Source of the DNA: Centroscyllium fabricii
Lineage: Eukaryota
Assembly (NCBI GenBank): GCA_051313645.2
Contig: JBNRSN020000005.1
Span: forward strand, 10,850,001 to 10,914,000
Reading direction: 5' to 3'
Length of the DNA stretch: 64,000 nt
Shown here: positions 59,021 to 62,622 of the stretch, in pieces
Layout: every line of letters starts with the position of its first letter
Numbering within the stretch: position 1 is the stretch's first letter
Translations under genes and position numbers: made by a program
Notes under the pieces: model-generated
What the model was told of the DNA's origin: nothing
The model's input: only the letters and a program-made list of their open reading frames with translations
Database searches by the model: none

Positions 59021-59122
59021 GCTTCTTCATATTTGTATTCCATTGTGCTCTAAAAGAAAATGTACAGAAGCAATGGAGGCGATACCTTTGCTGCGGCAGA
59101 TTCAGACTCCCGGAAAATTCAG
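59021..59122 (+). CDS. ADGRG6: ADGRG6 exon ([34 protein letters not shown])
   Basis: acatag acceptor, gtagga donor. End of TM7 and helix 8. Confidence 0.95.
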
Positions 59123-59144: not shown

Positions 59145-59379
59145 TTCAAATTCAAATTCAAATATTATTTCTCACATGTACTAAAATACAACGCGTGCAA
59201 TCTAGACAATGAAATGCTTTCTTTACGAGCCGAACGCACCGCGCAACAAAGAACACTAAGCTGCCCGGCACGCCCGGAGCCCGTAAGATGGCAGCCACCT
59301 CACCGGCGCCATCATCATAGGTCCCGTTCTCGCACCACTCCGGCTTCTCCTGCTGTCAAAGTTCAACGTTCTTTGACCA
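59145..59379 (-). mobile_element. Rex/Babar-like LINE/SINE 3' tail fused to the EIF3I retrocopy
   Basis: Minus strand reads gcatttcattg...gtacatgtgagaaataata(tttgaa)3. Family name is from recall. Confidence 0.55.
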
Positions 59380-60076
59380 ACCGCAGCCCATCTGCCCGTC
59401 ATTCGTGAACACGATGATGACACCGCCGAAGTCAAAGCCGCCAGTTCTAACCGCAGAGCCCGTTCCAAACAGAGCGAGCCGCTTCCTGCTCCACAGTCCC
59501 AAAGTCCACACGAGTCATCTGCAGAACCGGCCCAGTCAACGTCCACACACCACACCGCTCCGGCGCGTCCACTGCAAGCGCCGAGCCTCTCACCGTTCAG
59601 GGAACACCAGACACCAACAACGGTATCTCCTGCACAGGAGAACACCAAATTGCGCCCCCGGCTGCATTCATAGAAACATAGAAACTAGGAGCAGGAGTAG
59701 GCCATTCGGCCCTTCGAGCCTGCTCCGCCATTCAATGAGATCATGGCTGATCCTCCAAACCCAGTACCCCGTCCCTGCCCTCTCCCCATATCCCTCGATC
59801 CCTATCGAGCCTGCACCGACACATATCTCACCCTCTCCCCGTAACCCCACATATTCAATCCCCCTAACACTAAGTGTCAATTTATCCTGGCCAATCAACC
59901 TAACCCGCACATCTTTGTGATTGATCTTTCATGACCTTGCAACAAGATGGGTTTCATGGCGGCCGCTGGTGGTGGTTGCCCGGCTGGCGGCCTCTCCCTC
60001 ACGGCCCGGTGTCTCGGCGCTTCACTCGCTCCGCCGCAGCATGGAGAGTAGGAGAAGCCGGAAGTACGTCATCGGC
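59380..60076 (-). pseudogene. EIF3I: Processed, 3'-truncated EIF3I retrocopy with 5'UTR, split by a SINE, A-to-G hypermutated
   Basis: gccgccATG at 59957 gives MKPILLQGHERSIT. After the SINE it reads ECSRGRNLVFSCAGDTVVGVWCSLNGERLGACSGRAGAVWCVDVDW-AGSADDSCGLWDCGAG, then after a frameshift RLALFGTGSAVRTGGFDFGGVIIVFTNDGQMG. Colinear with recalled EIF3I, no introns. Confidence 0.93.
59670..59917 (-). mobile_element. 5'-truncated V-SINE inside the EIF3I retrocopy
   Basis: Family match; about two codons (QI) are missing at the site. Confidence 0.9.
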
Positions 60077-61546: not shown

Positions 61547-62622
61547 CGAAACATAGAAACATAGAAGATAGGAGCAGGAGTAGGCCATTCGGCCCCTTGA
61601 GCCTGCTCCGCCATTTAACGAAATCATGGCTGATCATCCAAATTCAGTACCCTGTTCCTGCCCTCTCCCCATATCCCTTGATCCCTTTAGCCTTAAGAAA
61701 TATATCTAACTCCTTCTTGAATATATTTAATAAGTTGGCCTCAACTGCTTCCTGTGGTAGAGAATTCCACAGGTTCACCACTCTCTGGGTGAAGAAATTC
61801 CTCCTCATCTCAGTCCTAAATGTCTTAGCCCTTATCCTTAGACTGTGATCCCTGGTTTTGGACTCCCGGCCATTGGGAACATCCTTCCTGCATCTAGTCT
61901 GTCTAGTCCTGTTAGAATTTTATAAGTTTCAATGAGATCCCCTCTCATTCTTCTGAACTCTAGCGAATATAAGCCTAATCGACCCAATCTCTCCTCATAC
62001 GTCATTCCTGCCATAGAAACATAGAAACATAGAAACTAGGAGCAGGAGTAGGCCATTTGGCCCTTCGAGCCTGCTCCACCATTCAATGAGATCATGGCTG
62101 ATCATCCATACCCAGTACCCCGCCGCTGCCCTCTCCTCATATCCCTATCGAGCCTGCATCGACACATATCCCACCCTATCCCCGTAACCCCATATATTCA
62201 ATCCCCCTAACACTAAGGGTCAATTTATCATGGCCAATCAATCTAACCCGCACATCTTTGGACTGTGGGAGGAAACCGGAGCACCCGGAGGAAACCCACG
62301 CAGTCACGGGGAGAATGTGCAAACTCCACACAGATAGTACCCGAGGCTGGATTTGAACCTGGGTCTCCAGTGCTGTGAGACAACAGTGCTAATCACTGTG
62401 CCACCGTGCCGCCCAGGTATCAGCCTGGTGAACCTTTGCTGCACTCCTTCAATGGCAAGAACATCCTTCCTCAGAAAAGGCGACCAAAACTGCACACATT
62501 ACTCGAGGTGTGGTCTCACCAAGGCCCTGTACAGCTGCAGCAAGACATCCTTGCTCCTGTACTCAAACCCTCTCGCTACGAAGGCCAACATACCATTTGC
62601 CTTCTTAACCGCCTGCTGCACC
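61547..62622 (-). mobile_element. CR1 3' part with nested V-SINE (62012-62413)
   Basis: CR1 C-terminal motifs on the minus strand. Confidence 0.88.

What the first reader, a model, noticed from the sequence alone, without database searches (positions are those of the whole stretch)
59670..60076. Sharp boundary: the retrocopy's 5' end is unedited
Seen: ATGAAACCCATCTTGTTGCAAGGTCATGAAAGATCAATCACA keeps all its As, with a perfect Kozak and about 120 nt of leader. Editing starts at the first codon past the co-oriented SINE. Inference: either only part of the mRNA was double-stranded, or RT switched templates between an edited molecule, a SINE RNA and an unedited molecule. The missing two codons and lack of a SINE TSD fit template switching but do not prove it.
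Basis: partly seen in the sequence, partly recalled or inferred. Interest (0 to 1): 0.7.

Follow-up and report, generated by a model that had tools for sequence, protein, structure and literature searches.

The report
RNA-edited EIF3I jumping-gene family
This is one of several hundred genomic copies of a jumping element built from the front of the EIF3I messenger RNA, and most copies carry inherited one-strand A-to-G patterns that were likely written by the RNA-editing enzyme ADAR before the RNA was copied into DNA; the SINE beside the editing edge is missing from sister copies and is likely just a later insertion.

Summary
The contrast is real (head 2 of 38 As changed, body 37 of 77, p=2e-6), but the head is not unedited and the SINE did not make the edge. 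The 'retrocopy' is one member of a repeat family (233 exact hits of one 18-mer; about 400-600 copies estimated): EIF3I leader plus spliced codons 1-119, fused to a 230-nt tail shared with two other non-autonomous families and resembling local LINE ends. Against the unedited founder, copies show A>G at 35% of coding As versus 1.8% T>C, with ADAR's 5'-neighbour order, and an untouched tail end. 120 edited copies fall into 28 patterns, 14 of them re-amplified; 28 of 30 copies picked without regard to editing are edited. The window copy belongs to a 20-copy subfamily; the other 19 share its edge and lack the SINE, a 5'-truncated insertion joined by microhomology. The duplex partner was not found. 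This scan has noted ADAR-like fossils in other genomes; my ten paper searches found no mRNA-derived family diversified this way.

The parts
59145..60071 (-). Whole copy of the EIF3I-derived non-autonomous retroposon (about 700 nt without the SINE), subfamily 'cluster 5'
60044..60071 (-). 5' cap: not from the present parent gene; 60062-60044 is the inverted copy of tail 59357-59339; begins with CRE-like and ETS-like motifs (motif names recalled)
59958..60048 (-). Leader derived from EIF3I exon 1; one probable A>G at 59964
59911..59957 (-). EIF3I codons 1-15 (exon 1/2 junction spliced); 1 of 19 As changed, at 59940
59669..59917 (-). 5'-truncated SINE, 91% like nt 161-401 of a full copy at 62420-62020; minimal extent 59671-59910; microhomology at both ends, no TSD; later insertion (inferred)
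59378..59670 (-). EIF3I codons 16-119 (exons 2-5 spliced), 37 of 77 As changed to G; private 18-nt deletion; 1-nt deletion at exon 4/5 junction shared with many copies
59145..59378 (-). 230-nt tail shared with families B and C; two predicted stem-loops, poly(A)-signal-like hexamer (AATAAT here, AATAAA in most copies), 6-nt terminal repeats 59163-59145; 1 of 45 As changed
59339..59357 (-). Tail arm of the 19-bp inverted repeat that brackets the EIF3I segment
57406..57693 (+). Exon of host secretin-family/adhesion GPCR gene (Pfam 7tm_2); the element lies antisense in a later intron, about 20 nt after an inferred exon at about 59022-59121
62020..62420 (-). Full-length copy of the same SINE, used as reference

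Best explanation
The locus is one copy of a multi-copy element made of spliced EIF3I exons 1-5 joined to a LINE-like tail, its A-to-G pattern and the pattern's edge are shared by a 20-copy subfamily and were likely written once by ADAR on a single RNA that was then reverse-transcribed and re-amplified, and the SINE likely inserted later. Steps: (1, inferred) a Rex/Babar-type reverse transcriptase copying the tail of an older non-autonomous element switched onto EIF3I mRNA at codon 119-120, ran to the leader, and folded back via a 5-nt match to add a 19-nt inverted copy of the tail at the 5' end. (2, shown) the product amplified: common 5' end, common junction, E83G in 153 of 154 copies. (3, inferred) it is transcribed by Pol II from motifs at its own 5' end. 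(4, inferred) transcripts of unedited source copies were often double-stranded over most of nt 40-540 and were hyper-edited; at least 28 such RNAs were integrated. (5, shown) 14 of these patterns recur in 2-33 copies, so edited copies served as new sources. The duplex partner is not identified: inverted copy in the same read-through transcript about 45%, antisense RNA of family copies in trans about 40%, the element's own fold about 10%.
For: Parent gene with introns found on C834; window vs parent 37 A>G, 3 T>C. 176 loci: coding A>G 5366 of 15222, T>C 229 of 13024; tail 288 of 7149 vs 258 of 8459. 5' neighbour U 356/432, A 461/797, C 319/766, G 135/630, each pattern counted once. Nine subfamily consensuses differ from the founder by 475 A>G of 534 changes; cluster 5 by 43 A>G and 1 other. 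Nearest-neighbour pattern distance 0.115 vs 0.437 shuffled. Cluster 5: G at founder 132 and 163 in 20 of 20, no G among the 13 As between in 17 of 20, SINE only in the window copy. Tail end resembles ends of RT + PF09004 LINEs. No A>G skew in 15 family-B, 8 family-C or 30 LINE copies.
Against: No 3'-G preference (0.44-0.52 for all four bases), although PMC4365171 reports G enriched downstream. No duplex partner found: longest intrinsic stem 19 bp, no EIF3I-part inverted copy in the flanks of 176 loci (0.3-1.5 kb) or in 30 kb, 10 kb and 80 kb around three loci. LINE-tail likeness covers only about 45 nt with gaps; no LINE with the exact tail was found. Promoter activity is untested. Cluster 2 and 15 mix two founder length variants, which allows template switching between family RNAs as a cause of sharp edges.
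Confidence: 0.88

Rival explanations
1. One reading: one RT event switched from an edited RNA to a SINE RNA to an unedited RNA, so the SINE marks the edge.
For: Dense editing starts at the first changed base past the SINE; no TSD; 0-6 nt lost.
Against: 19 of 20 copies with the same edge lack the SINE; the head is edited at codon 6; the same SINE kind sits at 9 other places inside 8 sister copies, seven with no duplication or a small loss when read by eye.
Confidence: 0.02
2. The edge came from a template switch between two family RNAs (heavily edited 3' part, lightly edited 5' part) when the subfamily source was made; ADAR origin unchanged.
For: Very sharp edges exist: cluster 2 has 43 of 79 As changed up to nt 319 and 0 of 63 in nt 325-540; cluster 2 holds both junction-length variants, 20 and 4 copies; the founder itself is a chimera.
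Against: No linked marker supports recombination; G-run slippage explains the length variants; a lightly edited head recurs in independent patterns (0/19, 1/19, 2/19, 4/19), as a duplex end would give.
Confidence: 0.25
3. The A>G changes arose in DNA or by RT error (biased mutation, gene conversion, error-prone copying), not by ADAR.
For: No 3'-G preference; no partner strand found; no RNA evidence.
Against: 20-fold strand asymmetry tied to element orientation, whole patterns fixed in one step with almost no other change, 5' order U>A>C>G, and no skew in sister families or LINEs.
Confidence: 0.05
4. Copies are independent retrocopies of (edited) parent EIF3I mRNA, each fused anew to a tail.
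For: Many independent patterns; junction-length variant equal to parent in 29 of 105 matched copies.
Against: One junction, one non-parent 5' cap, E83G in 153 of 154 copies, edits running into the tail to nt 538, patterns shared by up to 33 copies.
Confidence: 0.03

Closest known systems
Composite non-autonomous retroposons with host-RNA 5' parts: SVA subfamily with MAST2 exon 1; SINEU (PMC5753468, PMC4494074; passages read)
   Same: Host RNA piece joined 5' of a mobilisable 3' part, amplified from source copies, probably Pol II; template switch proposed for SINEU heads
   Different: Here four spliced coding exons make up most of the element, the tail is LINE-like and non-poly(A), and subfamilies are defined by A>G patterns
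Stringent SINE/LINE tail sharing, e.g. shark HE1/HER1 (PMC3747384; passages and table read)
   Same: Short element ends in a LINE-like stem-loop plus tandem repeat
   Different: No tRNA/5S/7SL head; exact partner LINE not found
APOBEC G-to-A edited LTR elements in vertebrate genomes (PMC4866542, PMC2873906; passages read)
   Same: One-strand clustered deamination fixed in integrated copies, polarised by a consensus
   Different: A-to-G on the RNA strand, non-LTR element, edited copies became sources
ADAR hyper-edited RNA in inverted repeats (PMC4365171; passages read)
   Same: Clustered A>G with G depleted 5' of the site
   Different: Fixed in DNA; no 3'-G enrichment; partner not located
A-to-G hypermutated avian retroviral DNA (recalled and named in earlier scan notes; not read here); ERV and U6-L1 type RNA capture (seen only as citations in PMC4494074)
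   Same: Edited or captured RNA written into DNA by RT
   Different: Single clones or one-off chimeras rather than many re-amplified edit lineages (recalled)

Membership tests
Processed pseudogene (one-off retrocopy) | Spliced exons, no introns | tested here: met
   Exons 1-5 of the C834 gene joined
Processed pseudogene (one-off retrocopy) | Ends in the mRNA's own 3' end/poly(A); made directly from parent mRNA | tested here: not met
   Stops at codon 119, foreign tail, shared derived features in hundreds of copies
Non-autonomous non-LTR retroposon | Dispersed copies, fixed 3' end with tandem repeat, variable 5' truncation, no RT gene | tested here: met
Non-autonomous non-LTR retroposon | 3' end shared with an autonomous LINE | tested here: inconclusive
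   About 45 nt gapped likeness to RT+PF09004 LINE ends; assignment of these LINEs to Rex1/Babar is recalled
Non-autonomous non-LTR retroposon | Target-site duplication | tested here: not met
   80 full-length copies match the shuffled control except 2; not required for all clades (recalled)
SINE in the strict sense | Pol III head from tRNA, 5S or 7SL | tested here: not met
   Head aligns to EIF3I exon 1 and to the inverted tail; a T4 run lies inside the tail
ADAR hyper-editing footprint | One-strand clustered A>G | tested here: met
   35.3% vs 1.8%
ADAR hyper-editing footprint | 5' G depleted | tested here: met
   0.21 vs 0.82 for U
ADAR hyper-editing footprint | 3' G enriched | tested here: not met
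   0.49 vs 0.44-0.52
ADAR hyper-editing footprint | Long double-stranded substrate | tested here: inconclusive
   None found in fold or sampled flanks
ADAR hyper-editing footprint | Inosine or ADAR dependence in RNA | not testable with these tools
   No raw RNA reads offered
V-SINE/HE1-type SINE (the insertion) | tRNA-like head, V-domain, CR1-type tail | tested here: inconclusive
   Matches a 401-nt full copy; ARAGORN finds no tRNA; family name recalled, no repeat library available

The most novel reading that the evidence does not exclude
A housekeeping mRNA fragment became a self-promoting Pol II retroposon, and ADAR editing did not stop it but founded its successful lineages: edited copies took over (28 of 30 unbiased copies) because editing freed them from pairing with, or silencing aimed at, the essential parent gene. 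Each subfamily is a dated single-molecule ADAR read from an ancient germ line.
Probability: 0.3. Interest if true: 0.88.

Novelty: new variant of a known kind. Interest (0 to 1): 0.72.

Why it matters
It shows RNA editing becoming heritable DNA sequence repeatedly, with the unedited founder and the intron-bearing parent both in the same genome, so direction and single-step origin are unusually clear. It also shows a route to multi-copy retrogenes where LINEs need their own tail: capture the tail once, then amplify. The 28 patterns make testable whether editing restricts or favours retroposition and where germ-line duplex RNA comes from.

Tried and rejected
Protein search with the edited window peptide found nothing; redone with a little-edited copy. 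Internal deletions as GT-AG introns: not supported by their ends (read by eye). 'Terminal repeat encodes EIF3I's C-terminal FEFE': rejected, the tail does not align to the parent 3' exons and is shared with other families. Cumulative rounds of editing: no pattern contained in another, top z about 3 among the pairs tested. A universal 1-nt deletion as founder mark: rejected, 29 of 105 matched copies keep the parent length. 'Families B and C are ADAR-exhausted': dinucleotide test unclear. Source hairpin: not found. Orthologous empty site in runs: no contig spans the locus with its flanks. No RNA holder listed. Run X12 held only an EIF3I mRNA-like contig, no chimera (not evidence of absence). DOI 10.1038/ncomms1525 not held, so a possible published precedent for genomic A>G clusters in mammalian retroelements, named in an earlier scan note, could not be checked. 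No supplements were read.

Full report
Observation. On the minus strand the element starts at 60071, has a 114-nt leader and an ATG at 59957. The body translates to a degraded eIF3i N-terminus (PDB E=1.5e-17; Pfam EIF3I). The closest proteins to a little-edited copy are from two rays and a shark, so the host is a cartilaginous fish. The intron-bearing parent lies on contig C834. Against it the window copy shows 37 A>G, 3 T>C, 5 C>T and 1 G>A over codons 1-120. One A>G is in the head, at codon 6 (59940). Against the family founder, head 2 of 38 and body 37 of 77 As are G (p=1.9e-6). The contrast is real; 'keeps all its As' is not.

It is a family. The body had 2896 first-look candidates and the head 469, 40 scored each; Pfam EIF3I gave 123 scored hits, all confined to profile positions 1-133. 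An A-free 18-mer has 233 exact matches, control 0. It was exact in 44 of 70 copies found by other searches, so at least about 370 copies reach exon 2; 400-600 is my estimate. A tail 19-mer has 1752 matches; of its first 30 loci 4 carry EIF3I sequence, 6 are too short to assign, and the rest belong to two other GC-rich families, B and C, of about 750-800 nt. Anatomy: 28-nt cap, EIF3I leader, codons 1-119, then a 230-nt tail ending in AATAAA and 6-nt repeats. Nt 10-28 are a perfect inverted copy of tail nt 493-511, a motif also present in family B, so the cap was likely copied from the tail. Codon 83 is changed in 153 of 154 copies, pointing to one origin. Two length variants exist at the exon 4/5 junction (74 short, 29 parent-type, 2 other of 105 matched). 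The founder differs from today's parent at 14 places in 360 nt and keeps T32 and N49 as in the outgroup proteins.

Editing. I mapped 176 distinct loci on a founder made from 12 little-edited copies (window duplicates and parent loci left out; some loci hold only the tail; the set is biased by how it was found). Coding part: A>G 5366 of 15222, T>C 229 of 13024. Leader: 295 of 2073 versus 45 of 1386. Tail: 288 of 7149 versus 258 of 8459. Of 143 copies covering at least 250 coding nt, 119 are over 20% changed, 23 under 10%, 1 between. Of the first 30 hits of the A-free pattern, 28 are edited and 2 not. Counting each pattern once, editing by 5' neighbour is U 0.82, A 0.58, C 0.42, G 0.21; the 3' neighbour is flat. 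G depletion upstream is the ADAR motif in PMC4365171 (passages); that paper's downstream G enrichment is not seen. Controls show no skew: 15 family-B and 8 family-C copies and 30 LINE copies (one has excess T>C).

Subfamilies. The 120 edited copies cluster into 28 patterns, 14 with 2-33 copies; median nearest-neighbour distance is 0.115 against 0.437 after column shuffling. The nine patterns with three or more copies differ from the founder by 475 A>G out of 534 changes, so each was written in one step. No pattern is contained in another. Large groups, including the unedited one, are 3.3-4.1% diverged at non-CpG sites: one period of activity. Offspring of edited sources gained few new edits (cluster 2: 104 of 2101 A>G, 61 of 2770 T>C). 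Edges differ by pattern: cluster 2 is edited to nt 319 and clean after; several patterns have a light head; edits thin out by nt 540 and the last 145 nt hold at most 2 of 25 per pattern.

The boundary and the SINE. The window copy is in cluster 5 (20 copies; 43 A>G and 1 other change). All 20 have G at founder 132 and 163, and 17 have no G among the 13 As between. Only the window copy has an insertion there. The insertion matches nt 161-401 of a full SINE copy at 62420-62020; its 5' end overlaps the target by 7 nt with one mismatch, so 0-6 nt are lost. Nine insertions of the same SINE kind in 8 sister copies show, by eye, no duplication or a small loss in seven and at most 4-6 nt in two. The edge is therefore inherited from the subfamily source and the SINE is likely a later, ordinary insertion next to it. 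Whether that edge marks a duplex end or a switch between two family RNAs is open; cluster 2 mixes both junction variants (20 and 4) but no linked marker backs recombination.

Mobilisation. LINEs with RT and PF09004 are abundant (78250 candidates) and their ends share about 45 gapped nt with the tail, including the hexamer and similar repeats. Calling them Rex1/Babar-type is recalled; the exact partner was not found. Tail sharing with stringent LINEs is the standard route (PMC3747384, passages). Family copies have no TSD above control except 2 of 80. Full-length copies start within about 10 nt of one motif regardless of flank, with subfamily-specific extensions rich in ETS-, CRE- and E-box-like words (names recalled), which suggests an internal Pol II promoter; untested.

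Duplex source. The founder's longest stem is the 19-bp panhandle and the edits lie in its loop. Edits cross exon junctions and enter the tail, so antisense pre-mRNA of the parent cannot be the whole partner. No inverted EIF3I-part copy was seen in the sampled flanks. Low re-editing of edited sources and clean sister families point to a duplex particular to unedited sources.

Other samples. Laid on an unedited copy, contigs of runs labelled organisms B and E show 56 T>C places each on the laid strand (A>G on the element) against 12 and 14 A>G, and contigs from B, C and E cross the EIF3I-tail junction. Labels are coded, so relatedness is unknown. No contig spanned the window locus.

What is known. 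Closest are composite retroposons with host RNA heads (SVA-MAST2, SINEU; passages of PMC5753468 and PMC4494074) and APOBEC-edited LTR elements (passages of PMC4866542 and PMC2873906). PMC8677026 (passages) reports no A-to-I changes in expressed L1 RNA. Passages of PMC8072771 and PMC5974252 gave no genomic precedent. Ten searches (listings only) showed no mRNA-derived family with ADAR-defined subfamilies; the library lacks most subscription papers and one candidate precedent was not held. Earlier scan notes describe ADAR-like fossils in other genomes, including a shark-like one; these are unchecked and not support. No note covers this place or sequence.

Verdict. The finding as written is partly right and its SINE mechanism is wrong. 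What lies behind it is a new variant of a known kind: an mRNA-bodied retroposon family whose subfamilies are fossil ADAR reads. Interest 0.72.

Noticed in passing
L052, L057, L080, L231 (family B); L222, L238, L244 (family C): Two further GC- and purine-rich non-autonomous families of about 750-800 nt share the tail and start with TTCCGG repeats followed by a GCCGCCATGG-like word; origin of their bodies unknown.
   Followed up: partly
L052/L057 versus family B consensus: 11 A>G versus 4 G>A and 4 T>C in 430 columns, clustered just before the tail: a possible older editing event in the B lineage.
   Followed up: partly
founder nt 1-10 in clusters 2, 8, 22: Subfamilies gained different short 5' extensions with ETS- and E-box-like words; a cluster-2 sub-lineage has tandem GGTTCC like family C.
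   Followed up: partly
founder nt 172-179 in clusters 5, 8, 21, 22: Editing created a G run that then expanded by 9-35 nt in many copies: microsatellite birth from editing.
   Followed up: no
L253 (G000:C1310:56640-59765): One LINE copy shows 67 T>C versus 21 A>G against the LINE consensus; could be subfamily divergence or antisense-strand editing.
   Followed up: no
G000:C336:803700-807600 (L086, L096): Two unedited copies 2.4 kb apart in the same orientation with a longer 5' inverted match to the tail (49 nt, 80%).
   Followed up: partly
G000:C800:57497099-57497245 (L114): Isolated copy of an EIF3I exon 8-like piece next to a SINE, away from the parent gene.
   Followed up: no
G000:C834:26067400-26067500: An opposite-strand ATG followed by a splice-donor-like word about 100 nt upstream of EIF3I exon 1 suggests a head-to-head neighbour gene.
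   Followed up: no
L032, L046, L094: Unedited copies of the parent-length junction variant would keep the EIF3I frame through codon 119 and stop a few codons into the tail.
   Followed up: no
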